This document shows positions 1 to 57,801 of a stretch of DNA of 64,000 bases, in pieces. The DNA lies in NCBI GenBank assembly GCA_963817245.1, contig CAWFNQ010000002.1:35281-99280 (forward strand), in the 5' to 3' direction. Source of the DNA: an uncultured Chloroflexia bacterium. GTDB lineage: Bacteria; Chloroflexota; Limnocylindria; Limnocylindrales; CSP1-4. Each line of letters begins with the position of its first letter. Position 1 is the stretch's first letter. The notes beneath the pieces are model-generated. The model was not told the DNA's origin. It was given only the letters and a program-made list of their open reading frames with translations, and ran no database searches. Made by a program: the position numbers and the translations under genes.

Positions 1-197
1 ACCGGCCGGACCGGCTCGAGGTGGGATGGGTGCTCATGGTCCTGCCGAACCAGCAGGTCGACCCGGAGAACCTGCCGACCCTGTCGCCGGTGCCGACCCC
101 GACGCCGCGCTCGTCCCCGTCCGGCGCCGCCCCGAGCGAGACGCCCGCGACCTAGCCGGGCGCCGCCGGCGGTCTCGAATGCCCGCGCCCGTCCTGC

Positions 198-1064
198 TCA
201 ATTCGAGGCGAGATCGATGAGGAATGGCGGCGTCCAGAGCTGCGAGTCGTGATCCCGCATCCACGCCGAGCGCCGTGATGAGGACCAGCAGGCCCGCGAA
301 GAGCACGCGATGACCAGCCAGTCGAGCCGCTCGTAGGCGAGGTGGCGCAGCCAGGTCCGTCGCGAGGTCCCGAAGGCGCGGAGGTCCATCGCGTCGATCG
401 TGTCCTCGGCGCCGGCGATCGCGTTGACCACGGTCGGGACCACGAGCGGGACCGAGTTGCGCAGGCGGCCGATGACACCCGCCGCCCCCTCGCTCCAGTC
501 GAAGCCGCGGATGCGCTGGGCATCGGCGGTGGTCTGGAGGTCCGCGGCGAGCGATGGGCAGGAATCGGAACGTCAGGTCGATCCCGTACGGCGAACTTCT
601 CCGGTACGCCGAGGCGGTGGAAGGCCACCCCGAAGTCGGCCGGCGCCACCGCGAACGCGAGGGGGAAGCCGATCGTCGCCATCGCCAGGTAGCGCATCAG
701 CTGGGTGACGGCGAGGCTGATCGACTCGGCGGAGATGGGCGTGCCCAGGAGGGGCATATAGAAGAGCACGTGGGTCTCGCCCGGCGGGATGCCCTCGACG
801 TTGCCGCCCGCGATGATCACGTTGACGGTGACGAGGAAGCCGATGAAGACGAAGACGATGGTCCAATTCCGTCGGACTCTGCCGCCACGGGATCCCGGCG
901 AGGCGGTAATAGGCCACCGAGATCAGGAGCAGACCGAAGACGACGCGCCCGTCCCAGACCTGCAGGACGGTGAAGATGAAGAAGACGATGACGAGGATGA
1001 GGACGCGAGGGTCGCGGCGTGCCAGCCACGACCCTCGGCCCAGATATCGCGGAGCGATATTCAC
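198..1064 (-). pseudogene. ecfT: ECF transporter transmembrane (T) component, EcfT/CbiQ family; reading frame broken several times
   Basis: Three minus-strand ORF pieces (573-1064, 152-820, 198-443) read consecutively as one EcfT-like protein. N-term is MNIAPRYLGRGSWLARRDPRVLILVIVFFIF. Middle is IIAGGNVEGIPPGETHVLFYMPLLG...FHRLGVPEKF. C-term by hand translation is SLAADLQTTADAQRIRGFDWSEG...VVNAIAGAEDTIDAMDLRAFG. At least 3-4 frame changes. GTG start at 1064. Confidence 0.75.
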
Positions 1065-1078
1065 GGTGTCGGCGGAGG

Positions 1079-1684
1079 TCAGCGCCCGAGGCGCTCCTTG
1101 AGCGGTTCCCAGGCGTACACGAGGATCGGCACGAGGATGATCGTGCCGATGAGGTCACCGACGATGACCGGGATGTAGACGGTCGTCAGGATGGTCCCGA
1201 ACGTCCAAGCCCTGACCAGGATCGCATCGGTGAAGACGAACAGGAAGCCGATCACGACGCCGATGGACCCAGCGATGGCGCCGCCGATCGCTCGCTGTCG
1301 GATATTGCCCGCGACCCAACTCGCGAGATAGAGGGGAGCGAGACCTGCGATCAGGCCGACGAAACCGTTGGCGAGGCTCCAATTCCAGGACGTGAGGGCG
1401 CCCTAGCCGGAGATCTGATCGCCGATGGCATTGCCGACGAAGCCGGTGAAGAAGCCGACGATCGGCCCGAACGCGTAGCCGAAGAACGGCACGAGGGCGA
1501 ACGCCGGACGGACCGAGACGGTGCTGCCCGGGATCGGGATCTGTGCGACGAGCAGGATCCCGTACAGGGCCGCGCCGACCGCGGAGTAGACGATGACGCG
1601 TGAGGTGACTTCCCACAGCCGATTGCTGCTCGGTTGCGCAGTCAGGGTGGACATGCTTCCTCCCATGGGTATCTCAAGGGACAC
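1079..1684 (-). pseudogene. ECF transporter substrate-specific (S) component interrupted by one in-frame TAG
   Basis: ORF 1403-1684 (...VSVRPAFALVPFFGYAFGPIVGFFTGFVGNAIGDQISG*) continues in the same frame after TAG (1403-1405) as GALTSWNWSLANGFVGLIAGLAPLY...ILVPILVYAWEPLKERLGR*. The whole protein is a multi-TM S-component-like protein lying between the ATPase and T genes. Confidence 0.7.
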
Positions 1685-1693
1685 GCCGACGAG

Positions 1694-3482
1694 TCAGGAC
1701 GCGGTCAATACCCTGCCCGGGCCTCCTTCCGATCCCCGAGCCGCTTCCGGACCTTGGGCGACGATCCGGCGTGCCAGCGTCTCGGCATCCAGGAACCCCT
1801 CCCCCGGCACTCGATACCGGAGGTTGGCCTGTATCAGCGACGTGAACCGTAGGTTGCAGGCGCGCCAGCGATCTGCATCCGTGATCACATCGACCGGAGG
1901 ACCGTCGGCCACGACCCGACCGTCCCTGAACAGAAGGATACGGTCTGCATACGTCAATGCAAGGTCTGCGTCATGCGTGACGAGGTACAGGCTGCGCAGC
2001 CCTGGGATGGCCACGACGGCACGCATGAACGCGTTTGCCGTCCGGTGATCCTGGCCGGCCGACGGTTCGTCGAGGATCAGGGTCGGCGGGCGGAGGGCGA
2101 GGGCGATGGCGAGCGCCAGCCGCTTCTGCTGTCCGAACGAGAGCGCCAGGGGTGGCCGCTCCTCGATCTCCTCGATCGTGTCGAGGGCCGTACGCCTGAG
2201 GCAGTCCTCCAGCAAGGCATCGAAGGTCGCCGGGTCACGCTTCATGTTCTGCGGACCGAACAGGATCTCCTCGCGGACCGTCCTTGAGAAGAGCATCTGG
2301 CTGGGGCTCTGGAAGACGTAGCCGAACTCGGTGGCGAGCTGGGCCGTCTTGCGCGTCCCCATCGCTGCGCCGTCGATGAGGATCGCGCCGTCGGTGACGG
2401 GGAGCAGCCGCATGGCGGTGCGGAACAGCGTGGTCTTGCCCGAGCCGTTCGGGCCGAGCACGGCGACGATCTCGTCGGGCCCCAGGCTGGCATCGACGCC
2501 GCGCAGGACCTCGTAGCCGTCGATGGCGGCACGAACGGCGCTGAACCTGAGCCGGTCGGTCGAGGCTCCAGCCGCTGTGGTCGGCGTAGCCGGATCCGGC
2601 GTCTCGTTGGGGGCCGCCCGCGCCAGCCCGGCGTCGACGGTCGGCGTCTTTCGCTCGCGTTCGAGGATGACCTCGAACGGCAGCTTGACCGCGTCGCGGG
2701 TCGGCCATCGTCAGGAAGCCGTCGATCGGGCCGAGGTAGCGAGTCCGGCCCTCATCGAGATACAGGATCGCGGTCGGGCCGCAGGTCGAGCGCCTCCTCG
2801 ACCCGGTGCTCGACGATGAGGATGGCGTTGCCCTCGTCGGCAAGGGCCCGGAGCATCGCGAGGAGTCGTTCCGCCGTCGCCGGGTCGAGGTTGGCCAGCG
2901 GCTCGTCGACGACGTAGACGCGAGGCCGCATCATCAGGATCCCGGCCACCGCCAGCAGCTGCCGCTCGCCGCCGGACAGCTGGTGGGTCTCGCGGCCGAC
3001 GAGCGACTCGATCCCGCGCCTGCTTGGCGACCTCGCGGATCCGGTCCCGGATCTGCTCGCGCGGGACGCCCATGTTCTCGGGCCCGAACGCCAGCTCGGC
3101 CTCGACCGTCGCTCCCACGATCTGCTTCGCTGGGTCCTGCAGGACGGTCCCGATCGTCCGCCCGATGTCGCGCAGCTTCGCCTCGGTCGTGAAGCGCGCC
3201 GGCGACCCGGACGGTCCCGGAGAGCTCGCCCGGGTAGGCGTGGGGGATCAGGCCGTTGATCGCCCGGATGAGGGTGCTCTTGCCGCAGCCCGACGGACCC
3301 GCGACGAGCAGCACCTCGCCTGGGTGGATCGTGAGCCCGATGTCCCAGATGGCCGGCTCGGTGGCCCGCCGATAGCGGAAGGTGAGGCCCTCGATCTCGA
3401 CGAGCGGCGCGGGCGCATCGGTCGCGGTCGCGGTCGCGGTCACGGGAGCGCGTGGGTCGGGCCGGGCCTCGGCGTCAGCCAC
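1694..3482 (-). pseudogene. Fused duplicated ECF/ABC ATPase (EcfA1-EcfA2-like, two nucleotide-binding domains), about 4 frame changes
   Basis: Domain 1 has Walker A GPSGCGKST (ORF 2934-3482), then VEAELAFGPENMGVPREQIRDRI (2711-3118), then Walker B VYVVDEPLANLD...ILIVEHR (2752-2949). The linker was hand-translated (DAVKLPFEVILERERK...). Domain 2 has GPNGSGKTT, LSFGQQKRLALA and LILDEPSAGQD (1694-2461). The pieces lie in four different frames. Confidence 0.8.
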
Positions 3483-9253: not shown

Positions 9254-9258
9254 CCTAG

Positions 9259-15613: not shown

Positions 15614-16594
15614 ATGACCCGCACCGTCCGATCCACCCGCCCGATGCTCCGCGGCGCGTTCACGGCCCTCGTGACCCCGTTCAGTGCCGACGGCACCCTC
15701 GACGAGGCCGCGTTCCGACGGCTCGTCCGCTGGCAGATCCTCGCCGGGATCGACGGGCTGGTCCCGTGTGGCACGACCGGCGAGTCCCCCACCCTTACGG
15801 AGGCCGAGCGCGAGCGGCTCATCGCCGCGACCGTCGAGGTCGCCACGGAACGGGACGCCCGGCCTCGCGTCCGCGTGGTCGCCGGGACTGGCACCAACGA
15901 CACGGCCGCCACGATCCGGGCGACGCGCCGCGCCGCCGAGCTCGGCGCCGATGCCGCATTGGTCGTCGCCCCGTACTACAACCGGCCCGACGGCCGGATG
16001 CTCGAGGCGCATTACCGGGCCGTCGCCGACGAGGGCGACCTGCCGATCGTCGTCTACAACGTCCCGAGCCGGACGGGCACGAACGTCGACGCCGACACGT
16101 TCCTGCGGCTCGCGGAGCACCCGCGCGTGGTCGCGGTCAAGGAGGCGAGCGGCAACCTCGACCAGATCGCCCGGATCTGCCGCGACCGTCCGCGCGACGT
16201 CGCCGTCCTCGCGGGCGACGATGCCTGGACGCTGGCGGTCCTGGCGATGGGCGGTGACGGCGTCGTGTCGGTCGCCTCGAACGAGGTCCCAGGCGAGCTC
16301 GTCGGCCTATGTGCGGCGGCGACGGCTGGTGACTGGGACGGCGCACGACGGATCCACGAACGCTGGCTGCCGCTGTTCCAGGGCAACTTCCGCGGCGGAC
16401 CGAACCCGGTCCCGGCGAAGGCCGCCCTGGCCCTCATGGGCCTGATCGAGACGGACACCGTCCGGGCGCCCCTGTTGCCGCTCGACCCGGACGCCCGCGC
16501 CGCGATGGCCACGACGCTTCGCGGCCTCGGCCTGCTCGAGGCGGCCGGCGGCCGCATGTCGACGCCGGCGGCGACGCAGGAGGCCGTGGCATGA
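15614..16594 (+). CDS. dapA: 4-hydroxy-tetrahydrodipicolinate synthase
   Basis: GAFTALVTPFSADGTLDEAAF...GIDGLVPCGTTGESPTLT...VVAPYYNRP...IVVYNVPSRTG...AVKEASGN is DapA-like. AAAGGAG SD at 15601-07 and ATG at 15614. Confidence 0.85.
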   Translation: MTRTVRSTRPMLRGAFTALVTPFSADGTLDEAAFRRLVRWQILAGIDGLVPCGTTGESPTLTEAERERLIAATVEVATERDARPRVRVVAGTGTNDTAATIRATRRAAELGADAALVVAPYYNRPDGRMLEAHYRAVADEGDLPIVVYNVPSRTGTNVDADTFLRLAEHPRVVAVKEASGNLDQIARICRDRPRDVAVLAGDDAWTLAVLAMGGDGVVSVASNEVPGELVGLCAAATAGDWDGARRIHERWLPLFQGNFRGGPNPVPAKAALALMGLIETDTVRAPLLPLDPDARAAMATTLRGLGLLEAAGGRMSTPAATQEAVA

Positions 16595-34958: not shown

Positions 34959-34978
34959 GCGCCGCGTACCATCGGGAC

Positions 34979-38847: not shown

Positions 38848-38900
38848 GCGTCCCTCCGCCGGTCACAGGGCCCGGCGGGCGCGGAGCCCTGCCACTGGCC

Positions 38901-39924: not shown

Positions 39925-39928
39925 ACCG

Positions 39929-40559
39929 ATGCCGGGCAAGATGAGCTGGTTCCTGCCGGAGACCCCGGACGTCCTCGGTACGCTCCGTCATCAGGCGGCC
40001 GTCACGAAGGAGGGGATGGCCGCCCTGGTCGAGTGGGCGAACGGCGACGCGAGCGCGAGCGACCGGATCCGCGACGCGGAGCATCGGGCCGACGAGATCA
40101 AGGCCCAGCTCCGGGCGTCGCTCAAGACCGCGTTCATCACGCCGATCGGCGCCGAGGACCTCTTCGTGATGTCGGGGCGGCTGGACGCGGTGCTCAACGG
40201 CGCGAAGGACGCGGTCCGCGAGTCCGAGGTCATGGCCATGCCACCCGACGCGACCGTGGCGACGATGTCGGCGCAGCTGGCCGAGGCCGTCGGGCAACTC
40301 GCCGTGGCCTTCGACCGGATCGGGAACGAGCGAGGCGAACGGCGACGGCGACGCCGCGACGGATGCCGCGGATCGGGCGGTGAAGGTCCAACGCCAGATG
40401 GAGCGCACGTATCGTCTCGGGATGTCGTCCCTCCTGGAGGTGGCCGACCTGCGCGAGGTGATGGGCCGCCGCGAGCTCTACCGGCGGTTCGCGCGGATCG
40501 GCGACGACGTAGTCGAGGTCGCCGAGCGGGTGTGGTACGCGGCGGTCAAGGAGGCCTGA
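39929..40559 (+). pseudogene. DUF47 / PhoU-like putative phosphate-transport regulator, one frame change near 40340
   Basis: The N-terminal part is FLPETPDVLGTLRHQAAVTKEGMAAL...AEHRADEIKAQLRASL...FITPIGAEDL. The C-terminus, hand-translated in another frame, is ADRAVKVQRQMERTYRLGMSSLLEVADLREVMGRRELYRRFARIGDDVVEVAERVWYAAVKEA*. Confidence 0.7.
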
Positions 40560-40577
40560 CGGCGCTACCCTGACCGG

Positions 40578-42007: not shown

Positions 42008-42105
42008 GCTGCTGTGCCGAGGCGCGTTCACCCGACGTTGATGTCTCGGACACGGGCACCGGGGATGCTGCCCGTCGGGGACCAAGTCTGCAGGAGGTCC
42101 GGATC

Positions 42106-44454
42106 GTGGCGAAGCCATTCAAGGGCACGGTCAACATCGACATCAAGGACTCGACGCCGGACTGGGAGCCGTACACCCAGCCGATCGCGCCGAAAGGCGC
42201 GCCGAACGTCCTCTATGTCGTCCTCGACGATGTCGGCTTCTCGGCGATGGAGCCCTACGGCGGCCTGATCGAGACGCCGAACATCAAGCGCATCGCGGAC
42301 CGCGGCCTGACCTATACGAACTTCCATACGACCGCGCTCTGCTCGCCGACCCGCTCCTGCCTGATGACCGGCCGCAACCACACCCGCAACGGGATGGCGT
42401 GCATCACCGAGGCCACGTCCGGGTTCCCGAACGCCAACGGGCACATCCCGTTCGAGAACGCCAACATCGCCGAGGTCCTCGGCCAGCACGGCTGGAACAC
42501 CTACATCGTCGGCAAGTGGCACCTGTGCGCCGAGGACGAGATGAACCTCGCCTCCTCGAAGCGCCAGTGGCCGCTCGGCCGCGGCTTCGAGCGCTACTAC
42601 GGGTTCCTCGGCGGCGAGACGAACCAGTGGTATCCGGACCTCGTGTACGACAACCATCCGGTCGCCCAGCCGGCCCTGCCGGAGGACGGCTACCACCTGT
42701 CCGTCGATCTGACCGACAAGGCGATCGAGTTCATCCAGGACGCCAAGGCGGTCGCGCCCGACAAGCCGTTCATGCTCTATTACTGCCCCGGCGCGGCACA
42801 CGCCCCCCACCACGTCCCGCGCGAGTGGGCCGACAAGTACAAGGGCGTCTTCGACATGGGCTACGAGGCCTACCGCGATGGGGTCCTCGAGCGGCAGAAG
42901 GCGATGGGCCTGCTGCCCGAGGGCGTCGAACTCTCGCCGCGCGATCCCTATGCCGACACGACCAGCCATGACGGGAAGACGTGGTCCCTCAACGACCGCG
43001 TCCGGCCGTGGGATTCGCTCTCGGTCGGACGAGCAGCGGCTGTTCTCGCGGATGGCCGAGGTCTACGCCGGTTTCCTGAGCCACGCCGACCACCAGCTGG
43101 GTCGCCTGCTCGACTTCCTGGAGGGCAGCGGCGAACTCGACAACACGATCATCGTCCTGGTCTCCGACAACGGGGCATCGGGCGAGGGCGGGCCGAACGG
43201 CTCGGTCAACGAGAACAAGTTCTTCAACGGCATCCCGGACTCCATCGAGGAGAACCTCAAGCTCATCGACGAGCTGGGGAGCACGAAGACCTACAACCAC
43301 TACCCGACGGGCTGGGCGTGGGCCTTCAACACGCCGTACAAGCTGTGGAAGCGGTACGCCAACTTCGAGGGCGGGACGGCCGACCCCTGATCGTCGCCTG
43401 GCCGAAGGGCGTCAAGGCCGCCGGGGAGTACCGGCGCCAGTACACGCACGCGATCGATATCGTCCCGACGCTCTACGAGTGCCTCGGCATCGAGATGCCC
43501 GAGGTCGTCAACGGCTACACCCAGTCCCAGCTCGACGGCGTGAGCTTCCGGGCGACGCTCGACGACGCCGATGCGACGACCGCCAAGGAGACGCAGTTCT
43601 ACTCGATGCTCGGGACGCGGGCGATCTGGCACAAGGGCTGGAAGGCGGCGACGGCGGTCCCGGCCGCGCCGGAGTCATGGGGCGATTTCAACCAGCAGCG
43701 CTGGGAGCTCTACGACACGACGACCGATCCGAGCGAATGCCAAGACCTGGCGGCGGACCATCCGGACAAGCTCCAGGATCTCATCGCCCTCTGGTGGGCC
43801 GAGGCCGGGGCGAACCAGGCCCTGCCCCTGGAATCCCGAGGCGCCATCGAGATCCTCGGGACCGCGCGACCGGAGCTCTCCAGCCCGCGGAGTCGGTACG
43901 TGTACTACCCCGGTGGCGCGGAGGTCCCGGAGTCGAGCGCCCCGAACATCCGCAATCGCTCCTACACGGTCGGCGTGGAGGTCGACATCGCGTCGCCGGA
44001 GGCCAGCGGCGTCCTCTTCTCGCAGGGCTCCCGGTTCGGTGGCCACGCGCTGTACGTCAAGGACGGCCTGCTTGACCTACGTGTACAACTTCGTGGGCGA
44101 GCATCTCCAGGTGATCGAGTTCGAGCGAACGGGTCCCGACCGGGCACGTCGTCCTGTCGGCGACGTTCGAGCGCCAGAACCAGGCGATGCCCACCCAGGG
44201 CGTGCTGACCCTCCACATCCGCGACAAGGCCTGTCGGACAGGGCGGGATCATGACCCAGCCCGGCAAGTTCGGCCTCGGCGGTGGCGGGCTGGTCCTCGG
44301 ACGGTCGGGTGCGGAGCCCGTGACCGATGACTACCCCGGCGTTCGGCCATGGCCGTTCGTCGGCGGGACGATCATCAAGGCGGTCATCGACGTCAGCGGC
44401 GAGGCCTTCGTCGACCTCGCGCGCGAGGCGGCCGCGATGTTCGCTCGCCAATGA
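42106..44454 (+). pseudogene. Arylsulfatase (Cys-type, formylglycine-dependent), about 5 frame changes
   Basis: NVLYVVLDDVGFS...ALCSPTRSCLMTGRNH (sulfatase signature)...GKWHL...; then IIVLVSDNGASGEGGPNG...HYPTGWAWAFNTPYKLWKRYANFEGGTADP in a second frame; LIVAWPKG...GVSF... back in the first; the tail (LTYVYNFVGEHLQV..., ...FGLGGGGLVLGRSGAEPVTDDY...) is in further frames. Confidence 0.85.
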
Positions 44455-46063
44455 CCGAGGGCCCGCGCTGAAGCGTCCGCCACTCCCGTCGTTCATCGCG
44501 GACCTGTTCGTCGATCCTGTCGCGCAGGGCGCCCTGCTGGCGGGATCGGTGGCCCTGTTCGCCGCGGCGCTGGATCCCCAGGTCTGGAGTCCGGCCCTGC
44601 CGTCGGTCCAGGCGGCGGTCCGGGCGAACCCCGACCTGGAGACGCTGACGGTCCTGGCCTCGACCGCGGCGGCGGCGCTGCTGCTCCTCGGTGGCGCGAT
44701 CGGCGACTCACGCCCGGCCAGGCCGATCATCCTCGGCGGGCTCTCGCTCGAAGCCGTGGGCTGCCTCATCGCCGTCGTCATCCCCAGCGGCCCGATCTTC
44801 GTCGTCGCGCGACTCGTGGGTCATGCCAGCGCGGCGTTCGTCATCCCGGTGTCGATCGCCCTGGTCGCGACGAGCTACCGCGGGCCGGTCCGGGCGACCG
44901 CGATCGGGATCGCCTACGGCGCCTACGGGGCGGCCGGCGCGGCTGCCCCGATCCTGCTGCAGCTCGTGCCGGGCGAACGCTGGCCGGCATTCCTGGCCGC
45001 GTTCGTCGCATGCGTCATCGCGATCCGCGTTGCATCGACCACGTCCTGACGCTGCGGCGGCCGTCGCTCGCCGAGCGCCCGCTGGTCGTCGGTGTGGCCG
45101 TCTGGGCCTTCGGGATCATCGTGATGACCGTCGGGTTGACATGGTTCAACGGCGGCTTCGACAACCCGGTCCGCTGGGCGCTGATCATCGGTGGCCCGGC
45201 GCTCGTGATCGGCTTCGACCGGCTGGCTCGTGCTCGAGCCGCGCCCCCGCCCGACATCATCCGTCGAAATGTCGCGATCGCGCTGTTCGTCGGGGTGGCC
45301 ATCGCGATCTCGCAGACGGCGGCGATGCTCGACCTGCCGCTCTACTTCCGGCTGGTGCTCGGGTACGGACCGGTGATGGCGACCGTGGCCCTGGCCCCGC
45401 TCTTCGGCGCGCTGGTCGTCGCGGGCCCGGTGGCCGGGCTTCCTGCTCGAGCGTGTCGCACCGCGCTGGCTGGTCGGCGGGGGCGTCATCTTCGTCGGGC
45501 TCGGGAACCTGGTCCTGGCGGCCGTGGCCACCCAGTCCGCGTCCTACCTCGGGTTCATCGTCCCGTGCCTGCTCATCGGGGCGGGCTTCGTGGTGGCCAC
45601 GACCGTCCGCACGGCGATCATCTTCGCCAGCGTTCCCAGGGGTTGCCGGCGACCGCGGCGGCGTTGAACGAAGCCTCGATCGCGGTCGGCTCGCGGCTCG
45701 GGATCGTGCTCGTCAGCGCGGTCGTCGCCCAGGTCGCCCTCTCGACCTACAGCGCATCCCTCGCGGGCTGCCGGGCCGCAGGCCGAGGCCGCCATCGCCG
45801 CCTTCCGCACGGTGCTCGTCGCCGTCGGGACGCCGTCGTTCAGCCAGGTCGCGACGACCATCGGTGCCGCCGACGTCCGTCCGTACGTCGATGCCTACTT
45901 GGCAGGCCTCAACGAGGCCTTCATCTTCTGCGGCCTCGTCGGCGTGGTCGGGGGCGTCATCGCCTTTCTTGCGTTCGGGCAGTCGGATCCGCTCCGGACC
46001 GTCTGGGACAATCGCGACGAACGGTCGGCCAGGGAACCCTCGGAGACGGCCGCCACGGCCTGA
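44451..46063 (+). pseudogene. MFS transporter, about 5 frame changes
   Basis: Consecutive TM-rich pieces lie in three frames: ...LLLLGGAIGDSRPARPIILGGLSLEAVGCLIAVV...; ...VGVAVWAFGIIVMTVGL...LFVGVAIAISQTAAM...; ...WLVGGGVIFVGLGNLVLAAV...IGAGFVVATTVRTAIIFASVP; ...NEASIAVGSRLGIVLVSAVV...; ...FIFCGLVGVVGGVIAFLAFG. ATG 44451 overlaps the sulfatase stop. Confidence 0.7.
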
Positions 46064-46301: not shown

Positions 46302-47128
46302 ATGACAGCGAGCACATCGGGCGATGCCACGGGCGAGCCCCTCCTGGCGTGGCTCGAGCGGCGTACGGCCGGGTCCCGGCAGCACGACATCGACTTCGAC
46401 AATGCGGGGCTCGAGTTCCGCCGACTGTTCAGCGAAGTCTGGGGAACGTTCCTCCTGGTCCTCGTGGCGGCTGGCGGTGGGGTCATCGGCGCGACCGCCT
46501 TCGGGTCCGACCTGACCCTGGCGATGAAGGCCCTGGCGCCCGGCATGATGGTCATGGGCATCATCTTCTTCATGGGCCCGATCGGGGGCGCCCACCTCAA
46601 CCCGGCGGTCACCATGGCGTTCGCGGTCCGCGGGAACTTCCCGTGGCGACGCGTGCCCGGGCTACATCGTCGCCCAGGTCATCGGAGCGATCCTCGCGTC
46701 GGTGTTCCTGCAACTGATGTACGGCGGCATCATCAACGGCGCCACCGAGCCCACGCCGGACGTCAACCAGGGCGTCGCCGTGCTGACCGAGGCCGTCCTG
46801 ACCCTCGGCCTCGTCAGCGTCATCCTCGGGACGGCGACCGGTGCTCGGAACGTCGGCTTCAACGGTGCGATCGCGGTCGGCGCATACATCGGCCTCGTCT
46901 CGGTGTGGGGTGCCCCGGTGACCGGCGCGTCGATGAACCCGGCGCGTTCGTTCGGGCCGATGCTGGTCGGCGGCGACCTGACGAACTACTGGATCTACCT
47001 CGTCGGGCCACTCGCTCGGCGCGATGATCGCGGTCGCCTTCGAATTCATCCTCCGCGGCAGGGCCACCAAGGCCGGCGCCGAGGCCGCCCAGGGCATCCT
47101 CGACGAGGCGAATCCGGCCGCGCTATGA
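46302..47128 (+). pseudogene. MIP-family channel (aquaporin/glycerol facilitator), 2 frame changes
   Basis: Both NPA boxes are present: GGAHLNPAVTMAF and GASMNPARSFGP. The frame changes at 46659-61 (extra G in CCCGGG) and near 47010. The hand-translated tail is GAMIAVAFEFILRGRATKAG...*. Confidence 0.8.
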
Positions 47129-48525
47129 CATCGACGGCCGGGGGACCGACGACGGCCACGGAGTGGCCGGCCACACCCCTGCCGGACCGTGCCGCAAGGA
47201 GCGCGGCCGGCGCGGCGGTCCGCGCGACCGTGCCACCCGCCGACCTCGGGTCGTGGTCGCCCCGGAAGGACCGGGGCGATCCGATCGCCCTCCTCGAGGG
47301 ACAGGCGACGACCCGCCTACCCGACCTCGTGCCCGTCCGCTACGGGCGGATGGCGATCTCGCCGTTCACGTTCTATCGGGGCGCGGCCCTGCCGATGGCC
47401 GCGGACCTGTCGGTCGGCCCGCGCACGGATATCGAGGTCCAGCTGTGCGGGGACGCGCACCTCGTCAACTTCGGCCTCTTCGCGTCACCCGAACGCGACC
47501 TCGTCTTCGACATCAACGACTTCGACGAGACCCTGCGCGGGCCGTTCGAATTCGACCTGAAGCGGCTGGCGGCGAGCCTCGTCGTCGCCGGTCGGGACCG
47601 GGGCTTCGACGTCCACGAGAACCGCCACATCGTCCACCGGGCCATCCGCTCGTACCGCGACCGGATGGCCGGCTACGCGACGATGCGGGCGATCGACGTC
47701 TACTACGCCGAGCGTGGACGCGACCGGGGTCATGGCCTACGTCGACAAGCACGCGCGATCCATGATCGCAGGGGACCGTGAAGTCGGCCGCGCACCACGA
47801 CGCGCTCCACGAGCTCCCCAAGCTGACGGCCCTCGTCGACGGGCAGCGGCGCATCGTGGAGCACCCGCCGACGCTCGTGAAGCTCAAGGACATGACCCAG
47901 CCGCTCGCCGACGCGGCCCTCGAGGCCTACCGCGAGTCCCTCCAGGAGGACCGCCGCGTCCTGCTCGACCGGTACCGGCTCGCGGATTACGCGCTCAAGG
48001 TCGTCGGGCGTGGGCAGCGTCGGGCTGCTCGCCTTCGTCGCCCTGTTCATCGGCGACGCCGACGACGACCCGCTGTTCCTCCAGGCCAAGCAGGCCGAAG
48101 CGTCGGTGTACGAACGCTTCCTCCGGCCGAGCCGGCACGACGAGCCACGGGGAGCGCGTCGTCACCGGGCAGCGCCGGCTCCAGGGCGACGAGCGACATC
48201 CTGCTCGGTTGGGGCGGTCGGCGATGCGCGGCAATCACGCCTATATCCGCCAGCTCCAGGACCAGAAGGGCAGCGCGGTCGTCGACACGATGACGCTCGA
48301 GGACCTCGCGACGTGGGGCGAGTTGTGTGCATGGGCCCTCGCCCGCGGCCACGCCCGGTCAGGCCAGCCGGCCACGATCGCCGGGTACCTCGGGCACCGA
48401 CAACGGGTTCGAGCACGCGATGGCCGATCTTCGCCGACGCCTACGCCGACCAGAACGAGCAGGACCACGCCGCCATGCTGGCGGCCATCAAGAGCGGCCG
48501 GATCACCGCCCAGAGCGGCGTCTGA
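47125..48525 (+). pseudogene. DUF2252 family protein, about 5 frame changes
   Basis: LVPVRYGRMAISPFTFYRGAALPMAADL...VQLCGDAHLVNFGLFASPERDLVFDINDFDETLRGPFEFDLKRLAAS is DUF2252-like. Later pieces (AYVDKHARSM, HHDALHELPKLTALVDG, GSVGLLAFVALFIGDADDDPLFLQAKQA, YIRQLQDQKGSAVVDTM, FADAYADQNEQDHAAM) are spread over three frames. Confidence 0.75.
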
Positions 48526-50342: not shown

Positions 50343-53108
50343 TCAGGCCGCGGCGGCCACAGCCGCCGGCGCCTCGACGACGGGCTCGTCACCCGTGCGT
50401 ATCTTGAGCAGCTTCCTGGCCTCCTCGACGACGATGAGCGACAGGCTCACCAGGATGCAGACCGCCCATTGGTCGGCCGTCAGGCTCACGGTCCCGAGGA
50501 TCCGCTGCAGGACGCCCAGCTCGGTGGCGAGGATGATCGACAGGACGGAGATTCCCGTCCCGATCAGCAGGGGCTGGTTCGAGAGGATCGTGCCGCTGAA
50601 CAGCGACTCGTCCTCGTCCGCGGTCTCGAGTGACGAGAACAGGCGGAACAGCGCGAACGTGGTGACGCCCATCGTCCGAGCGACGACGTCGCCGTAGGCC
50701 GCGTCGCTCCAGGCCAGGACGCCGAGCGTGCCGGCGGCCATGACCAGGCCGCACAACACGAGCCAGCGCATCAGGCGCGGCGGCATGATCTTCTGCTCCT
50801 TCGGCCGCGGCGGGACCTCCATGAGGCCCTCGCGCGGCTTGCCGTAGCCAAGGCCGATCGCCTGGAAGACGTTCACGGTGAAGTTGAGCCACATCGTCTG
50901 GAGCGGCAGGAACGGGATCCCGCCCAGGATGTTCAGGAGGGACGAGCCGAGGAACGTCGCGATGAATGCGAACAGGCCCGCCATCTGGAACCGGATGAAC
51001 CGCATGAGGTTGTCGTAGACCGCGCGTCCGAGGCCGACGGCCTTCACGATCGTCGCGTAGTTGTCGTCGGTGAGGATCATGACGGCGGCCTGCTTCGAGA
51101 CCTCCGTGCCGGTGATGCCCATCGCGATGCCGATGTCGGCCTTCTTGAGGGCCGGCGCATCGTTGACGCCGTCCCCGGTCATCCCGACGACGTGGCCCTT
51201 CTTGCGCAGGATGTCCACGAGGTGGACCTTGTCCTCGGGTGACACGCGGGCGATGACACCGATCCCGTCGATCTGGCGCATCGCCTCGTCGTCGCTCATC
51301 GCGCGGAACTCGGCGCCGGTGATCGCCCGGCCTTCGATGCCGAGCTGGTGGGCGATCGCCTCGGCGGTGACCGCGTGGTCACCGGTGATCATCCGGACCT
51401 GGATGCCCGCCGCGTGCGCCTGGGCGATGGCCGCCTTGGCGGCCGGCCGTGGCGGATCGACGATGCCGACGATCGCCAGGAGCGTGAGCCCCTGGATCGC
51501 CGGAAGCAGGTCGGCGTTCGGGTCGAACGTCGCCGGATCGAAGTCCTTCTGGCCGGTGGCCATGACGCGCAGGCCCTAGCGTGCCGAGTCGTTCGTTCTC
51601 GGCGAGGTAGGCGTCGCGCAGCTGGGCGATCGGGACCTCGGTGCCGTCCGGCCCATGCGCGGAGACGGCGCGGGCCAGGAGCTGGTCCGGCGCGCCCTTG
51701 ATGTAGCCGCGGATGACGTCCTTGCCGCTGGCGTCCTTCATCCGATGGAACGTCGCCATCATCTTGTAGGCCGCGTCGAACGGCAGGGTCGCGACCCGCG
51801 GGTACTGCTCGCGGGTGAGCGTGGGGTCGACGCCACCCTTGGCGGCCAGGACCACGAGGGCGCCCTCGGTCGGGTCGCCGACGAGTGCGCCGTCACGGAC
51901 CTCGGCGTCGGCGCACAGGGCCATCGGTAGCAGGTATTGCTCGAGCGGCACCTCCGGCTGGCCGCCGGTGTGGGTGATCTGGCCGGTCGTCGAATAGCCG
52001 TCGCCGCTGATCGCGTAGCGTCGGCCGACGATCGCCATCTGGACGGCAGTCATCTGGTTGAGGGTGAGCGTCCCGGTCTTGTCGCTGTTGAGCGCCGACG
52101 TCGACCCGAGGGTCTCCACGGAGCGAAGGCGCTTCATGATCGCGCCGGCCGCGGCGAGCGTCTGGGAGCCCTTCGACAGGATGGCCGTGACGACGGCCGG
52201 GAGCGCGGTGGGGATCGCCGCGACCGAGAACGCCACCGCGCTCAGGAACAGCTCCTGCGCCTGGACGCCGCGGTACAGACCGAGCGCGATCGAGATGACG
52301 AGCGCGATGCCGGCGATGACCAGGATCTGATTGGTGAGCGCGTCGAGCTGCTTGGTGAGCGGCGTCTTCTCGACCGTGGTGGCCTGGAGCATGCCACTGA
52401 TGTGGCCCACCTCGGTCGCCATCCCGGTCGTGGTGACGAGGACGGTCCCCGCGCCGCGGGTGACCTGGCAGTTCATGAACGCCATGTCGACCCGGTCGCC
52501 GAGCGCGGCGTCCGCGGCAACGGCCTCGACTTGCTTGGGCGTCGGGACGCTCTCGCCGGTGAGCGCGGACTCGTCGATCTCGAGGGTCGCGGCCGAGAGG
52601 ATCCGCGCGTCCGCCGGTACGAGGTCCCCGGCCTCGATGTTGACGATGTCGCCGGGGACCAGCTGGTCCATCGGGATCTCGACGAGGTCGCCGTTTCGCC
52701 GGACCTTGGCCTTGACGACCATCATGCTCTCGAGCGCCGAGGCGCTCGCCTCGGCCTTGCCCTCCTGGTTCATCGCCATCCAGGCGTTGAACATCGTGAG
52801 CAGGATCAGGAAGACGCCGGTGTAGAACTGGCCGGGCAGGAACAGGCAGATCACGCCCGCGATCAGGAGCACGATCTGCATCGGGTCGGCGTACTGGCGG
52901 GTGAACAGCTGCAGCTTCGAAGCCTTCTTCGCCTCGGCGAAGGCGTTCGGGCCATAGGTCGCCCGCCTGCCATCTGCCTCGGCGGCCGTCAGTCCGACGC
53001 CAGGGTCGACCTTCAGGCGAGACGCCGCCTCCTCGGCGACAGCGCGAACCAGGCGACCTCGGGCGGCGTCGCGGCCGCTGTCGTCGCCGGACCGGTGGAC
53101 GCCGTCAT
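50343..53108 (-). pseudogene. Cation-transporting P-type ATPase (P2-like), 2 frame changes (near 53030 and 51574-76)
   Basis: N-terminal, hand-translated: AEEAASRLKVDPGVGLTAAEADGRRATYGPNAFAE. Also present: ...TGESVP...SDKTGTLTLNQM...; after the frame break GLRVMATGQKDF...MITGDHAVTA...GMTGDGVNDAPALKKADIGIAMG. ATG 53108 overlaps the PPK2 stop (ATGA). Confidence 0.85.
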
Positions 53109-54136
53109 GAGCCCTTCCCCTTCGCCTTCTTGCGCTTCCGATCGGCTTTCGCTTGCATCTCGGCGGCGTAGGGATCGGGTTCGGCGCCCTTGGGGGCCTG
53201 CGCTTCGAGGACGTCCTTCGCTGCCGCGAGGTCGGCCAGCTGGTCCTTCGAGACCTTCGGGTACTTCGGGTCGATCTCGATCAGGGTGTGCGCCAGCACG
53301 CCGGCGGCGGCGACCCGCGCGAACGGCTTGTCATCGGCCGGGATCACGTACCACGGCGCCCAACTCGTGCTGGTCTTGCTCAGGACGTCCGAGAACGCCT
53401 TCTGGTAGTCGTCCCAATGCTCGCGCTCCCGGGCGTCGGCGCTCGAGAACTTCCAGTTCTTGTCGGGCTCGTCGATCCGTGACAGGAACCGGCGCCGCTG
53501 TTCCTCGTGACTCAGGTTGAGGAAGAGCTTGACGAACCGGAATCCCTGGTCGGTCAGGTAATGCTCCCAGTCGTTGATCTCCCGGAACCGGCGGTTCCAG
53601 ATCCCGGGACCACGGACCGAGCGCGGAAGCTTCTGCTTGTCGAGGATCGCCGGGTGGACCCGGACGACGAGGAGCTCCTCGTAGTACGAGCGGTTGAAGA
53701 TCCCGATATCGCCCCGCGCCGGCAGCTTCCGGGCATACCGCCACAGGTAGTCGTGATCCAGATCGGTCGCCGACGGTTGCTTGAAGCTCGAGACCTGGAC
53801 GCCCTGCGGGTTCACCCCGCTCATCACGTGGCGGATCGTGCCGTCCTTTCCGGCAGCATCCATCGCCTGCAGGAGCATGATCACGCCATAGTCGTCCTGC
53901 GCCGCGAGCCGCGACTGGTACTCGGCGAGCATCTGGACCCCCTGCGCGAGGAACTCCTTGGCCTCGCGCTTGCTCGCGCGGCCGGAACCGGCGGCGGGAT
54001 CGAAGTCGTGGGGCAGGCGGACCTTGCGTCCGGGCTCCACGCGGAACTGCTCGACGAATTCGGCGATGCGCTTCGGACCGATCTCGACCACTACAGGGCC
54101 CTCCTCCCGCTCACCACCGGTCGATGGGCCGCCCAT
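53105..54136 (-). CDS. ppk2: Polyphosphate kinase 2 family protein
   Basis: VIMLLQAMDAAGKDGTIRHVMSGVNPQGVQVSSFK...YLWRYARKLPARGDIGIFNRSYYE...FLNLSHEEQRRRFLSRIDEPDKNWKFSSAD are PPK2 Walker A/lid motifs. 343 aa, intact. Confidence 0.85.
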   Translation of the reverse strand: MGGPSTGGEREEGPVVVEIGPKRIAEFVEQFRVEPGRKVRLPHDFDPAAGSGRASKREAKEFLAQGVQMLAEYQSRLAAQDDYGVIMLLQAMDAAGKDGTIRHVMSGVNPQGVQVSSFKQPSATDLDHDYLWRYARKLPARGDIGIFNRSYYEELLVVRVHPAILDKQKLPRSVRGPGIWNRRFREINDWEHYLTDQGFRFVKLFLNLSHEEQRRRFLSRIDEPDKNWKFSSADAREREHWDDYQKAFSDVLSKTSTSWAPWYVIPADDKPFARVAAAGVLAHTLIEIDPKYPKVSKDQLADLAAAKDVLEAQAPKGAEPDPYAAEMQAKADRKRKKAKGKGS

Positions 54137-55345: not shown

Positions 55346-55502
55346 GGCCGCGATCGTGCCACATCGCCGCCCGGGGTCGCTCGGCGAGCCCGACGATCGC
55401 GGCGAGCCCGACGATCGCGGGTACCCCGACCACGAGTGACCCGGCCGCGCCGATATCATCGGCGGGCTGACCCATCGGATCGAGCCGGGACGGAGGTGCG
55501 CG

Positions 55503-56493
55503 GTGCTCGCGATCCGTATCGACATCCATGGCGGACCGGAGGTGCTCCAGCCCGTCGAGTTGCCAGTCCCTACGCCCGCGCCGGATGAGGTCCTCGTTCG
55601 CCACGAGTGGATCGGCGTCAACTATGTCGACACCCAGCACCGGGCGGGCGCGCCGTACCCGGTCCACTTGCCGCTCATCCCCGGCATCGAGGCGGCCGGC
55701 GTCGTCGTGCGGCCGGGCGCGGGCGTCCGCGACCTCGCGGTCGGGGACCGGGTCGCCTATGGCGGGCCCATGGTCGGGGTCTACGCGGAGTCCGCGGCCG
55801 TCCCCCGGTCCGTCCTGGTGCGTGTCCCGGACGGCCTCACGACCCGCGACGCGGCCGCAGTCCTCCTCCAGGGGATGACCGCCCACCTCATGACCCACGA
55901 TGTCCACACGGGCCGCCCGGGCGAGACCGCGCTGGTCCATGCCGCGGCCGGCGGCACCGGCTCGCTCCTCGTGCAGTTCCTTCGATGCCCAGGGCGTGAC
56001 GGTCATCGCAAGCGCCTCGGCCGGCCCGAAGGCGGCCTACCTTCGAGAGCTCGGCGTGGCGCACGTCCTGGATTCGCGGCGGCCGGATCTGGCCGAGGCC
56101 GTTCGGGCGATCGTGCCCGGCGGCGTGGACGTCGTCTTCGACTCCGTCGGCCGGGCGACGTTCGAGACGACGCTGCGCGCCGTGCGGCCGATGGGCCTGA
56201 TCGTCGCGTTCGGACAGTCGAGCGGACCGGTCGCGCCGATCGACATCGCGCGCCTGTCCGGCCTGACCGGGGAGGGTCTGCCCGGCTCGCTCACCCTGAC
56301 CTGGCCGACACTCAGCGACCACAACGCCGCGCGCGAGGCCCTCGTGACCCGGGCGGCTGCCGTGTTCGAGGCGGTCCTCGATGGCACCCTGCGGCCAGCG
56401 ATCGCAGCCGCGCTGCCGCTCCGGGACGCCGCCCGGGCGCACGAGCGTCTCGAGTCGCGCGACCTCATCGGAAAGGTGCTCCTGGAAGCCTGA
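55503..56493 (+). pseudogene. Quinone oxidoreductase / zeta-crystallin-type MDR, one frame change near 55985
   Basis: GGPEVLQPVELPVPTPAPDEVLVRHEWIGVNYVDT...GIEAAGVV...VHAAAGGTGSLLVQF, then in another frame AQGVTVIASASAGPKAAYLRELGVAHV...GKVLLEA*. Confidence 0.8.
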
Positions 56494-56535
56494 CGGATCA
56501 GGCCGGCCTCGCCGGGCCGGCCGGGGTCGGCCGGG

Positions 56536-57286
56536 TCAGGACGGGTCCTCGAGCGCGATGCGGATCCGCTTGTTGATGCGCCCCTTCGACTCGTAGCCCG
56601 TGACCCGGATGCGGCCGACCTCGCGCGTGTTCGAGACGTGGGTCCCGCCGTCGGCCTGCAGGTCGAGCCCGACGATCTCGATCGTCCGGATCTCCTCGAT
56701 GCCCACGGGCAGCAGGTTCACCTTGGTGCGGATGAGATCCGGGATGGCGAACGCCTCGGCCCGGGGCAGCACCGCGACACGGACGTCGCGCGCCTTGGCG
56801 AGCTCGTCGTTGACCGTCGCCTCGATCGCGTCCGACGAGGTCCCCCGACATCCGTTCGAACTCGAAGTCCATCCGCCCGGCGCCCGGTTCCATGTTCCCG
56901 CCGGTCACCAGCGCGCCGTAGTCGCGCCAGACCACGCCGCACAGGGCGTGGAGCGCCGTATGCGTCCGCATGAGCTGGAGCCGTCGAGCCCAGTCGAGGT
57001 CGACCTCGAGCGTGTCGCCGACGGCCGGCGGGTCCCCGTCCGTCGGGTCGAGCTCGTGGACGATCTCGCCGTCGAGCTTGCGCGCGGCACGGACCGTCCA
57101 GGTCCGCCCGTCCGCGGCGCGAAGGAACAACCCCCGATCCGACGGCTGACCGCCGCCACCCGGGTAGAAGACCGTCCGGTCGAGGACGACGAGCGTGGTT
57201 TCGCCGGCATCGACCGCGCGGACGCGCGCCTCCGTGGCGCGCGCATACGCGTCCGTGTAGCAGAGCTGCTGGCCGGTCGGGGTCAC
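56536..57286 (-). pseudogene. AlaX-like alanyl-tRNA editing protein (tRNA_SAD/HxxxH family), one frame change near 56800
   Basis: YTDAYARATEARV...VLDRTVFYPGGGGQPSD...MRTHTALHALCGVV...GGNMEPGAGRMDFEF, then in another frame ...VLPRAEAFAIPDLIRTKVNLLP...LQADGGTHVSNTREVGRIRV... Confidence 0.75.
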
Positions 57287-57294
57287 CGCAGGAC

Positions 57295-57801
57295 CTACTG
57301 GACCGTGAGCGTCCCGGTCATGTTCGAGTGCACCGTGCACACGAACGGATAGGAGCCCGGAGCCAGCGGCCCGACCGAGAACGTCTTGGTCGCTACGCCC
57401 GGGAAGATGTCGGTCACGAAGACCTTCGCGCCGTTCGCGTCCTTGATCTCGACGTCGTGCGGCGTACCGGCATCCTCGTTATCGAATGCGAGGGTGAACC
57501 CGGTCGACGGCGCGGTGACGGTCGGCGTCGTGAACTGGATGTTCTGGGCCGTGATCGTCACCGTCGGCCCGCCGCCGCCCGAGCCGGACGGGGCCGGGGC
57601 GCTGCCCGATGGCGCGGCCGAACCCGATGGTGCCGCGGACGCGCCGGCCGAGGGTTCGGTGCTCGGAACCGGCGTCGGGGGCGGGGCCGGCGCGTAGGTC
57701 CAGCCGGCCGATGTGGAGCTGCATGCCGCCGCGAACGCGGCGATCACGAGGAGGGCCAGCAGGGCCGGGACGAGGGGTCGCGGGTGGGGCATGGGCAGCA
57801 T
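57295..57801 (-). CDS. Cupredoxin (blue-copper, amicyanin/plastocyanin-like) lipoprotein
   Basis: Lipobox AAFAAAC-S, then a Pro/Ser/Ala linker, then ...GTPHDVEIKD...YPFVCTVHSNMTGTLTV (His, Cys, His, Met copper ligand pattern). Confidence 0.8.
   Translation of the reverse strand: MLPMPHPRPLVPALLALLVIAAFAAACSSTSAGWTYAPAPPPTPVPSTEPSAGASAAPSGSAAPSGSAPAPSGSGGGGPTVTITAQNIQFTTPTVTAPSTGFTLAFDNEDAGTPHDVEIKDANGAKVFVTDIFPGVATKTFSVGPLAPGSYPFVCTVHSNMTGTLTVQ

What the first reader, a model, noticed from the sequence alone, without database searches (positions are those of the whole stretch)
150..57300. About 19 genes have broken reading frames; lesions are strongly clumped and mostly 1-nt run-length changes
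By hand translation I had to change frame roughly 40-45 times to follow obviously homologous proteins. The count is approximate, not computed.

Per gene: ECF T/S/A (>=8 plus one TAG), M23 (1), dapD 5' end (1), lysA (5), methyltransferase (1), SIMPL (1), EamA (1), PiT (1), DUF47 (1), anSME (1), sulfatase (~5), MFS (~5), aquaporin (2), DUF2252 (~5), P-type ATPase (2), Qor (1), AlaX (1).

Junctions I could resolve include:
- Extra G at 39606-08, 46659-61 and 18303-05.
- Extra C at 32438-40, 30527-29, 51574-76 and 18279-80.
- Extra A at 27310-11.
- One missing C in the run 43384-87.

Indels in short homopolymers are the signature of long-read, 454 or IonTorrent consensus errors, but also of slipped-strand mutation. 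Against uniform error, long stretches are clean: 6294-10665, 11808-16590, 19691-26932, 33077-38821 and 58293-64000. Meanwhile 150-3480, 17440-18782 and 42106-48525 carry about one lesion per 300-400 bp. The heavily hit genes are plausibly dispensable (transporters, sulfatase, lysA). Real, ongoing gene decay in a reductive lineage therefore remains possible.
Basis: seen in the sequence. Interest (0 to 1): 0.6.

Follow-up and report, generated by a model that had tools for sequence, protein, structure and literature searches.

The report
Assembly indel errors mimic gene decay
The roughly 40 broken reading frames in this soil-bacterium genome window are almost certainly single-base consensus errors of a low-coverage long-read metagenome assembly, not real gene decay, so the finding is a data-quality flag and not biology.

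Summary
The frame breaks are really in the sequence. Clumping is also real.

The same lesions occur genome-wide: about 1,040 switches (0.31 per kb), breaking 667 of 3,245 gene chains.

Evidence that they are artefacts:
- Single-copy essential genes (ileS, nrdJ, carB, smc, and also dnaE and polA) are split across frames.
- At 21 window sites, short-read contigs from other soil metagenomes, some 99-100% identical nearby, lack the lesion. They show no other unbalanced indel, and none in a clean control stretch.
- Lesions per kb do not depend on gene length or on position within a gene.
- Clumps cross genes and strands, decay over about 10-20 kb, and are enriched at contig ends.
- Extra bases outnumber missing ones 3:1.
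- In-frame stop candidates are at most about 39.
- Few-contig sister MAGs of the genus even carry frameshifted rpoB.

The "run-length change" claim fails: there is no long-homopolymer enrichment, and most placed extra bases are not in runs.

The organism is a Limnocylindria (Chloroflexota) MAG. Its few-contig relatives are Nanopore-only Flye+Medaka bins.

One point stays unexplained: lesions are 3.5-fold depleted in housekeeping genes.

The parts
304..3410 (-). ECF/ABC transporter module (T, S and A components). At least 8 frame switches: HMM 573, 876, 1086, 2694, 2778, 3012, 3192. One in-frame TAG at 1403-1405 (minus strand).
   Evidence: HMM. Pfam ABC_tran. Short-read contigs 98.7-99.3% identical lack 2 bases at about 300, 1 base at 559 and 1 base at 3195, and read C instead of T at 1404 (TGG Trp instead of TAG).
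16588..17436 (+). dapD-like hexapeptide transferase with a frame switch at about 16665.
   Evidence: HMM. Pfam Hexapep.
17437..18776 (+). lysA (diaminopimelate decarboxylase) in five frame segments. Switches at 17700, 18132, 18277 (doublet) and 18495.
   Evidence: HMM. Pfam Orn_Arg_deC_N. The read-through aligns 100% to intact homologs. tblastn of an intact homolog hits frames 1, 2 and 3. No short-read contig coverage.
26935..27670 (+). Methyltransferase with one extra base near 27309-27311.
   Evidence: HMM (frame 0 to 1). Pfam Methyltransf_11.
29849..30640 (+). SIMPL/DUF541 gene. The C-terminal approximately 30 profile positions are missing from the main frame.
   Evidence: Pfam SIMPL covers profile positions 1-173 of 205. 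The junction itself was not checked independently.
32141..33035 (+). EamA transporter with one extra base near 32436-32440.
   Evidence: HMM. Pfam EamA.
38820..40556 (+). PiT/PHO4 phosphate transporter (switch at 39603) and its DUF47/PhoU_div partner (switch at 40329).
   Evidence: HMM. Pfam.
40572..41900 (+). Radical-SAM/SPASM maturase (anSME-like) with one missing base after 41898.
   Evidence: Pfam. Contigs of 2 runs put in a G after 41898.
42088..44442 (+). Sulfatase. Extra bases at 43025, 44072, 44118 and 44232. Missing base after 43387.
   Evidence: Pfam Sulfatase and SGSH_C. HMM. Contigs of up to 4 runs.
44444..46009 (+). Extra base at 45436; missing bases after 45634 and 45774; possible switch at 45024.
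   Evidence: HMM. Contigs.
46326..47110 (+). MIP aquaporin with extra bases at 46662 and 47013.
   Evidence: Pfam MIP. Contigs of 3-4 runs. One contig is 99.5% identical except for the indel, and neighbouring contigs are 100% identical.
47203..48522 (+). DUF2252 protein with extra bases at 47711, 47770, 48009, 48189, 48392 and 48424.
   Evidence: Pfam DUF2252. Contigs.
50346..53109 (-). P-type cation ATPase split into two frames by one extra base at about 51574-51578.
   Evidence: Pfam finds the N-terminal and C-terminal domains in different frames. Contigs of 2 runs leave out 1 base at 51578. This is the only indel in 6.4 kb.
55455..56490 (+). Qor-type zinc alcohol dehydrogenase with a switch at about 55977.
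   Evidence: HMM. Pfam ADH_N.
56545..57289 (-). AlaX-type editing protein with a switch at about 56832.
   Evidence: HMM. Pfam tRNA-synt_2c.
33000..38800 (.). Clean control stretch (including AlaDH/PntA and PntB): no frame switch and no indel against short-read contigs.
   Evidence: HMM. Read laying reports 'letters left out or put in: none'. Coverage by close contigs is patchy before 36900.

Best explanation
The lesions are consensus errors in the deposited assembly. They are mainly spurious single-base insertions, and fewer are single-base deletions.

The genome is a 6-contig, 3.27 Mb, 71% GC metagenome-assembled genome of a soil Limnocylindria (Chloroflexota) population. It was most probably built from long noisy reads alone at modest depth. 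Where few reads, or reads of mixed strains, supported the consensus, random indels survived polishing. Where depth was better the sequence is clean.

Local depth varies on the scale of read length and drops at contig ends. Errors therefore come in multi-kb clumps that ignore gene and strand boundaries. The genes themselves are intact in the organism.

Shown here:
- The lesions exist.
- They are genome-wide.
- They hit essential genes.
- They are absent from independent short-read contigs.
- They have an error-like spectrum.

Inferred, not shown:
- The platform and pipeline. This rests on the few-contig relatives named MFD...bin, which are Nanopore-only Flye + one round of Medaka.
- Local depth as the cause of clumping.
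For: 1. Scale. About 1,040 switches, 0.31 per kb, break 667 of 3,245 gene chains. Another window of the same genome was independently flagged for the same thing.

2. Essential genes are split across frames. Both pieces match adjoining parts of the same NCBIfam profile:
- ileS: profile positions 141-685, then 696-850
- dnaE: 1-303, then 318-1022
- nrdJ: 17-89, then 91-953
- carB: three pieces
- smc, typA and uvrA
There is no second ileS, nrdJ, carB, smc or polA copy; polA's split is shown only by tblastn of its own read-through.

3. Independent short-read contigs.
- At 21 window sites, Logan contigs from up to four soil metagenomes of two studies lack the lesion.
- Several of these contigs are 99-100% identical to the window right beside the lesion.
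- At most of these sites every spanning contig lacks the lesion.
- With one exception (a balanced -1/+1 pair 6 nt apart at 45964/45970), every indel in the tables shown falls at a frame switch.
- A clean 5.8-kb control stretch shows none.
- In 51000-57400 the single indel is the ATPase lesion.

4. There is no sign of a selection filter.
- Lesions per kb are flat across gene-length classes (0.33-0.42), so half of the genes of 1.8 kb or more are broken.
- Position within single-lesion genes is uniform, with no 3' bias.

5. The clumps are regional.
- Neighbour correlation holds on opposite strands too.
- Pair correlation is 3x at under 250 bp and fades to 1x at 16-32 kb.
- 41 lesions lie within 5 kb of contig ends against 19 expected, P = 9e-6. 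The first 5 kb of C5 has 17.

6. The spectrum is error-like.
- Net +1 to net -1 is 788 to 252.
- Long runs are not enriched.
- Placed extra bases are mostly outside runs and half are A/T.
- At most 39 candidate in-frame stops stand against about 1,000 frameshifts.

7. Sister genomes.
- Few-contig MAGs of the genus have 59-83% estimated completeness (one, G010, reaches 95%), against 91-93% for the best many-contig ones.
- They show fragmented hits.
- rpoB is frameshifted in G001 and G003.

8. Context.
- Few-contig relatives are MFD long-read bins, made with Flye --nano-hq and one round of Medaka without short-read polishing (PMC12313526).
- Nanopore bins below about 40x need short-read polishing (PMC9262707).
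- Coverage, platform and assembler drive spurious pseudogene counts (PMC11017572).
Against: - The MAG's own reads could not be found. Depth at the lesions and read support were therefore never seen directly.
- The short-read contigs come from other samples, so strictly they show that close relatives are intact, not that this population is.
- Lesions are 3.5-fold depleted in 33 conserved housekeeping genes: 7 against 24.5 expected, P = 3e-5. rpoB, rpoC, gyrA/B, EF-G/Tu, dnaK, groEL, atpA/D and dnaA are all intact. Selection would also predict this.
- The insertion-dominated, non-homopolymer spectrum is not the textbook Nanopore error profile.
- At 45634, 48009 and 48392 only part of the contig depth shows the indel.
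- The lysA cluster and the ileS junction were not spanned by any contig.
- The HMM makes some false joins at real gene junctions (the glmM, eno and ftsW chains), so genome-wide counts are approximate.
Confidence: 0.93

Rival explanations
1. Real, recent gene decay. This Limnocylindria population has fixed hundreds of frameshift mutations in dispensable genes, and purifying selection keeps housekeeping genes intact.
For: - Lesions are 3.5-fold depleted in 33 conserved housekeeping genes.
- The heavily hit window genes are transporters, a sulfatase and the like.
- The order contains a family with 1.0-1.4 Mb genomes, so genome reduction occurs in the wider lineage.
Against: - ileS, nrdJ, carB, smc and polA, all single copy, and dnaE are broken mid-gene.
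- Equally dispensable genes are clean.
- The per-kb rate is independent of gene length and of position in the gene.
- Clumps cross strands and are enriched at contig ends.
- There are at least 25 frameshifts per candidate nonsense codon, and none of the 1-2 kb genes carrying 5-6 indels contains an in-frame stop.
- The 3:1 insertion bias runs against the deletional bias of bacterial mutation (my own knowledge).
- Contigs 99-100% identical lack the lesions.
- Codon-usage signal is intact even in 51-100 nt frame segments.
Confidence: 0.03
2. Slipped-strand or mismatch-repair-deficient hypermutation. A mutator lineage accumulates 1-nt indels in short runs, filtered by selection.
For: - The lesions are 1-nt indels, and some lie in GG/GGG or CC/CCC runs.
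- Housekeeping genes are depleted.
Against: - Slippage rates rise steeply with run length (my own knowledge). Here run length near the switches equals that at random positions, and lesion density correlates negatively with the density of runs of 4 or more.
- 11 of 16 placed extra bases are not in runs.
- Few nonsense codons are seen, although mutators raise transitions strongly.
- Essential genes are hit.
Confidence: 0.01
3. Mixed origin. Most lesions are assembly errors, but a minority are genuine strain-specific pseudogenes hidden among them. Candidates are some multi-hit accessory genes or the TAG in the ECF S component.
For: - Any natural genome carries some pseudogenes.
- The housekeeping depletion leaves room for this.
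- The TAG at 1403-1405 is a substitution, not an indel. A 99% identical contig reads TGG there, which fits either a real nonsense allele or a base error.
Against: No lesion tested was shared with any independent contig. Nothing distinguishes any subset by spectrum or context.
Confidence: 0.03

Closest known systems
Spurious pseudogenes from indel errors in low-coverage long-read (Nanopore-only) assemblies and MAGs (PMC9262707; PMC11017572; pipeline of PMC12313526)
   Same: - Single-base indels fragment otherwise conserved genes genome-wide.
- Estimated completeness is lowered despite very high contiguity (6 contigs, 85.7%).
- Sister long-read bins are worse, and essential genes are hit.
- Independent short-read data lack the lesions.
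- Dependence on local support is implied by multi-kb clumps and hot contig ends.
   Different: - The classical description stresses deletions or insertions in long homopolymers. Here insertions dominate 3:1, long runs are not enriched, and many inserted bases are A/T outside any run.
- The platform of this particular record could not be verified.
Reductive genome decay with mass pseudogenisation (Mycobacterium leprae type; recent host-restricted pathogens and symbionts)
   Same: A large share of genes (about 20%) is interrupted in a genome of about 3.3 Mb. Some genes carry several lesions. Housekeeping genes are relatively spared.
   Different: - Essential single-copy genes are broken.
- There are almost no nonsense codons and no large deletions, and coding signal is not lost.
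- Lesion rate is independent of gene length and position.
- Clumps ignore gene and strand boundaries and favour contig ends.
- Near-identical relatives are intact.
Slipped-strand mutation at homopolymers (contingency loci, mismatch-repair mutators)
   Same: 1-nt length changes, some of them in short G/C runs.
   Different: No dependence on run length. Most insertions are not run extensions. The lesions are spread over all gene classes and are not focused on particular tracts.

Membership tests
Long-read consensus indel artefact | Lesions are absent from independent, more accurate sequence of the same or a near-identical strain | tested here: met
   21 window sites lack the lesion in Logan contigs of up to 4 soil metagenomes. 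Some contigs are 99-100% identical beside the lesion. These are not the same sample, so the test is indirect.
Long-read consensus indel artefact | Lesions hit genes indiscriminately, including essential single-copy genes | tested here: met
   ileS, dnaE, nrdJ, carB, smc, typA, uvrA and polA are split across frames. The rate per kb is flat with gene length and position. Caveat: 3.5-fold depletion in 33 housekeeping genes.
Long-read consensus indel artefact | Lesion density tracks read depth or assembly structure | tested here: inconclusive
   Depth is not available. Indirect support: contig ends have 41 lesions against 19 expected, and pair correlation decays over about 10-20 kb across genes and strands.
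Long-read consensus indel artefact | Raw reads do not support the indels, and polishing restores the frames | not testable with these tools
   The source run was not found.
Long-read consensus indel artefact | Errors concentrate in long homopolymers (the classical Nanopore/454/IonTorrent signature) | tested here: not met
   No run-length enrichment at the switches. 11 of 16 placed extra bases lie outside runs. This does not exclude a low-depth random-indel error mode.
Genuine pseudogenes / reductive decay | Essential genes are spared and lesions are confined to dispensable genes | tested here: not met
   ileS, nrdJ, carB, smc (single copy) and dnaE are broken. Dispensable regulators are clean.
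Genuine pseudogenes / reductive decay | A mixed lesion spectrum: nonsense codons and larger deletions alongside frameshifts, with eroding coding signal | tested here: not met
   At most 39 candidate in-frame stops against about 1,000 frameshifts. Codon signal is intact in 51-100 nt segments. The read-through lysA aligns end to end.
Genuine pseudogenes / reductive decay | Lesions respect gene boundaries and are unrelated to assembly features | tested here: not met
   Opposite-strand neighbours are correlated (rho 0.12, P = 4e-4). Contig ends are enriched.
Slipped-strand / mutator indels | Rate rises with homopolymer length | tested here: not met
Programmed frameshifting or transcriptional slippage rescue | Conserved slippery site or long tract at the shift, conserved in relatives | tested here: not met
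   Shift sites have no common motif or tract, and relatives lack the shift.

The most novel reading that the evidence does not exclude
A minority of the lesions is real. Under this reading the soil Limnocylindria population carries a recent burst of frameshift pseudogenes in accessory genes, and the 3.5-fold sparing of housekeeping genes reflects purifying selection, not better read support. That would be early-stage genome reduction in a free-living soil Chloroflexota lineage whose order also contains 1.0-1.4 Mb genomes.
Probability: 0.04. Interest if true: 0.5.

Novelty: not a real feature. Interest (0 to 1): 0.08.

Why it matters
There is no new biology here. The practical point is data quality.

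This genome stands in a one-genome-per-species collection, so it is presumably a species representative. About one gene in five is artificially fragmented, including ileS, dnaE, nrdJ and carB.

Several analyses that take the sequence at face value will be misled:
- gene calls
- pseudogene counts
- completeness estimates (85.7% for a 6-contig genome)
- metabolic reconstructions, for example an apparent lysine auxotrophy from the 'broken' lysA and dapD
- evolutionary inferences about genome reduction

Several few-contig sister genomes of the genus appear worse, with frameshifted rpoB.

The error spectrum may interest people who build polishers for low-depth metagenomic bins. It is insertion-biased, independent of homopolymers, clumped over several kb and hot at contig ends.

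Tried and rejected
1. Reference-based frameshift calling against short-read congeners.
- I passed 22 ORFs through align_proteins to get them into Python.
- tblastn of these ORFs found only a few orthologs, so I dropped this in favour of a reference-free HMM.

2. Finding the MAG's own reads.
- Four run searches, one restricted to NANOPORE, gave only other soil metagenomes holding at most 38% of the words.

3. Short-read contigs over the lysA cluster and the ileS junction.
- There was essentially no spanning coverage.
- lysA was checked with intact homologs from the protein collection instead.

4. The homopolymer explanation was tested and rejected.

5. GC content as a driver gave only a weak correlation (rho 0.11).

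6. Essentiality as an explanation of the clean stretches was rejected, because clean genes include many dispensable regulators.

7. I considered reference-guided frameshift correction or short-read polishing of only part of the genome as a cause of the clean/dirty mosaic and the housekeeping sparing. This could not be tested. The pipeline of the likely source project uses neither.

8. A rough comparison of lesion positions with cross-mapped contig depth in the window was suggestive at best, and I do not use it.

Full report
**What the window is**

The window is bases 35281-99280 of contig C2 of a 3.27 Mb, 6-contig, 71% GC genome. The genome's estimated completeness is 85.7%. Close relatives of its PntB protein are all Chloroflexota, named Candidatus Limnocylindria or Limnocylindrales. 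The relatives with contigs of 0.2-2.3 Mb are named 'MFD....bin'. These are bins of the Microflora Danica long-read catalogue. That catalogue was made with Flye --meta --nano-hq and one round of Medaka, without short-read polishing (PMC12313526). The window's own record name is withheld, so its platform is inferred, not shown.

**Checking the observation**

Third codon positions are 91.7% G+C, so the reading frame can be followed without any reference. I trained codon tables on 620 long ORFs of the genome. I then ran a 7-state Viterbi segmentation with six coding phases and one non-coding state. A lesion was called where coding continues on the same strand in another frame at least 30 nt before the stop codon of the old frame.

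- In the window this gives 29 firm switches.
- There are also four switches that happen to lie near a stop, three doublets, and three extra sites seen only in short-read contigs.
- lysA, read through its five segments, aligns over its whole length to intact 440-460 aa diaminopimelate decarboxylases (81% best identity). An intact homolog hits three frames of the window.
- The clean stretches are individually unlikely at the window's mean rate (P 0.006-0.047).

Broken frames and clumping are therefore confirmed.

The third part of the observation, 'mostly run-length changes in short homopolymers', is not confirmed.

- Maximum run length within 10-25 nt of the switches is the same as at random coding positions.
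- Bins rich in runs of 4 or more have slightly fewer lesions.
- Where short-read contigs fix the exact base, 11 of 16 extra bases are not part of any run, and 8 are A or T.

**The phenomenon is genome-wide**

- The HMM finds about 1,040 such switches (0.31 per kb) in all six contigs.
- They break 667 of 3,245 gene chains.
My scan finds the same permease with 8 switches.
- The HMM is not perfect. Three of 20 chains I annotated (glmM, eno, ftsW) contain a full-length gene joined to a neighbour, so roughly one call in ten is a false join.
- In the best-checked stretch (42.9-48.6 kb), all 12 firm calls coincide with indels seen in contigs, and 4 of 16 lesions were missed.
- The total is thus of the right order.

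**Evidence that the lesions are errors**

1. Essential genes.
   - ileS, dnaE, nrdJ, carB, smc, typA and uvrA are each split over two to four frames.
   - The pieces match adjoining parts of the same NCBIfam profile.
   - tblastn finds no second copy of ileS, nrdJ, carB, smc or polA, and shows polA's own read-through lying in two frames.
   - A cell cannot live with ileS cut at residue 750 of 1,105.

2. Independent sequence.
   - I laid Logan contigs of soil metagenomes from two studies on the window.
   - At 21 sites they lack the lesion: 300 (2 nt), 559, 3195, 41898, 43025, 43387, 44072, 44118, 44232, 45436, 45634, 45774, 46662, 47013, 47711, 47770, 48009, 48189, 48392, 48424 and 51578.
   - With one exception (a balanced -1/+1 pair 6 nt apart at 45964/45970), every indel in the tables shown falls at a frame switch.
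   - A clean 5.8-kb stretch shows no indel at all.
   - In 51000-57400 the only indel is the one in the P-type ATPase.
   - Some contigs are 100% identical to the window over 160-270 nt right next to a lesion. One is 99.5% identical with the indel as its only gap. So a strain that is the same or nearly the same, read with short reads, has the open frame.

3. No selection footprint.
   - Lesions per kb are the same in short and long genes, so half of all genes of 1.8 kb or more are broken.
   - Positions within single-lesion genes are uniform.

4. Assembly-linked geography.
   - Lesion counts of neighbouring genes are correlated, also on opposite strands.
   - The pair correlation falls smoothly from 3x to 1x over about 16-32 kb.
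   - The 5 kb next to contig ends hold 41 lesions against 19 expected. There are 17 in the first 5 kb of C5.

5. Spectrum.
   - Extra bases outnumber missing bases 788 to 252.
   - At most 39 places could be in-frame stops.
   - Genes with five or six indels have no stop.

6. Sister genomes.
   - In this genus the few-contig genomes have 59-83% estimated completeness (one, G010, reaches 95%). The best many-contig, short-read-like ones have 91-93%.
   - In two of the few-contig genomes even rpoB is frameshifted.

This fits published experience:
- Nanopore bins below about 40x need short-read polishing (PMC9262707).
- Coverage, platform and assembler drive spurious pseudogene counts (PMC11017572).

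Clumping is expected if consensus quality follows local read support. The clean stretches are not essential genes. They hold WYL regulators, an HD protein, hypothetical proteins, a cyclase-AAA-TPR regulator that has at least ten paralogs, a LuxR-AAA regulator and PntAB.

**What remains unexplained**

- Lesions are 3.5-fold rarer in 33 conserved housekeeping genes picked by sequence motifs (7 against 24.5 expected). rpoB, rpoC, gyrA/B, EF-G/Tu, dnaK, groEL, atpA/D and dnaA are all intact.
- My inference is that conserved core genes receive more reads in the consensus step, because strains collapse there and reads of related populations map to them. Strain-specific segments are thin by comparison. 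I could not test this without the reads.
- The insertion-biased, run-independent spectrum is also not the textbook Nanopore profile. It looks like random indels surviving at low depth.
- Neither point rescues the decay reading, because essential genes are hit and near-identical strains are intact.

**Verdict**

It belongs to a known kind of artefact and has no biological novelty. Its value is as a warning for anyone using this genome or its few-contig congeners.

Noticed in passing
A 196-nt short-read contig with 2 mismatches reads C instead of T at 1404. That gives TGG (Trp) on the coding strand. The stop is either a substitution error or a strain allele.
   Followed up: partly
G001:C10:197325-200637 and G003:C5:25537-28847: rpoB is split over several frames in two few-contig sister genomes of the genus (estimated completeness 75% and 69%). 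It is one open frame of about 1,180 aa in the many-contig genomes and in this one. The long-read members of this genus seem systematically affected.
   Followed up: partly
whole genome G000 (33 housekeeping genes, e.g. C1:1545984-1554075 rpoC/rpoB): Frame switches are 3.5-fold depleted in conserved housekeeping genes (7 against 24.5 expected), although ileS, dnaE, nrdJ, carB and smc are hit. The cause was not established.
   Followed up: partly
G013-G020 (same order, other family): The nearest other family in the order has genomes of only 1.0-1.4 Mb at 89-93% estimated completeness, against 2.3-3.8 Mb in this genus. That is a strongly reduced sister lineage.
   Followed up: no
window 16588-18776: dapD ends exactly where lysA begins, with no spacer. 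One database protein of 715 aa (P0008, on a 156-kb contig) carries both the hexapeptide-transferase and the decarboxylase domains. This is either a real dapD-lysA fusion in some relatives or a read-through gene call.
   Followed up: no
window 42011-42093: In the spacer between the radical-SAM maturase and the sulfatase, contigs of three runs replace 81 nt of the window with 35 other letters. This is a small strain-level replacement, not a 1-nt lesion.
   Followed up: no
window 19724-22333 and G000 C1:858613, C1:1974186, C2:201977, C2:686662 and others: The adenylate-cyclase / AAA / TPR regulator of the window has about ten paralogs in this genome and many in each congener (37-48% identity).
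   Followed up: no
G000 C5:1-5000; C1:1-5000; C6 last 5 kb; C4:1-5000: Several contig ends are extreme hot spots. There are 17 frame switches in the first 5 kb of C5. Contig termini of this assembly should not be trusted at base level.
   Followed up: partly
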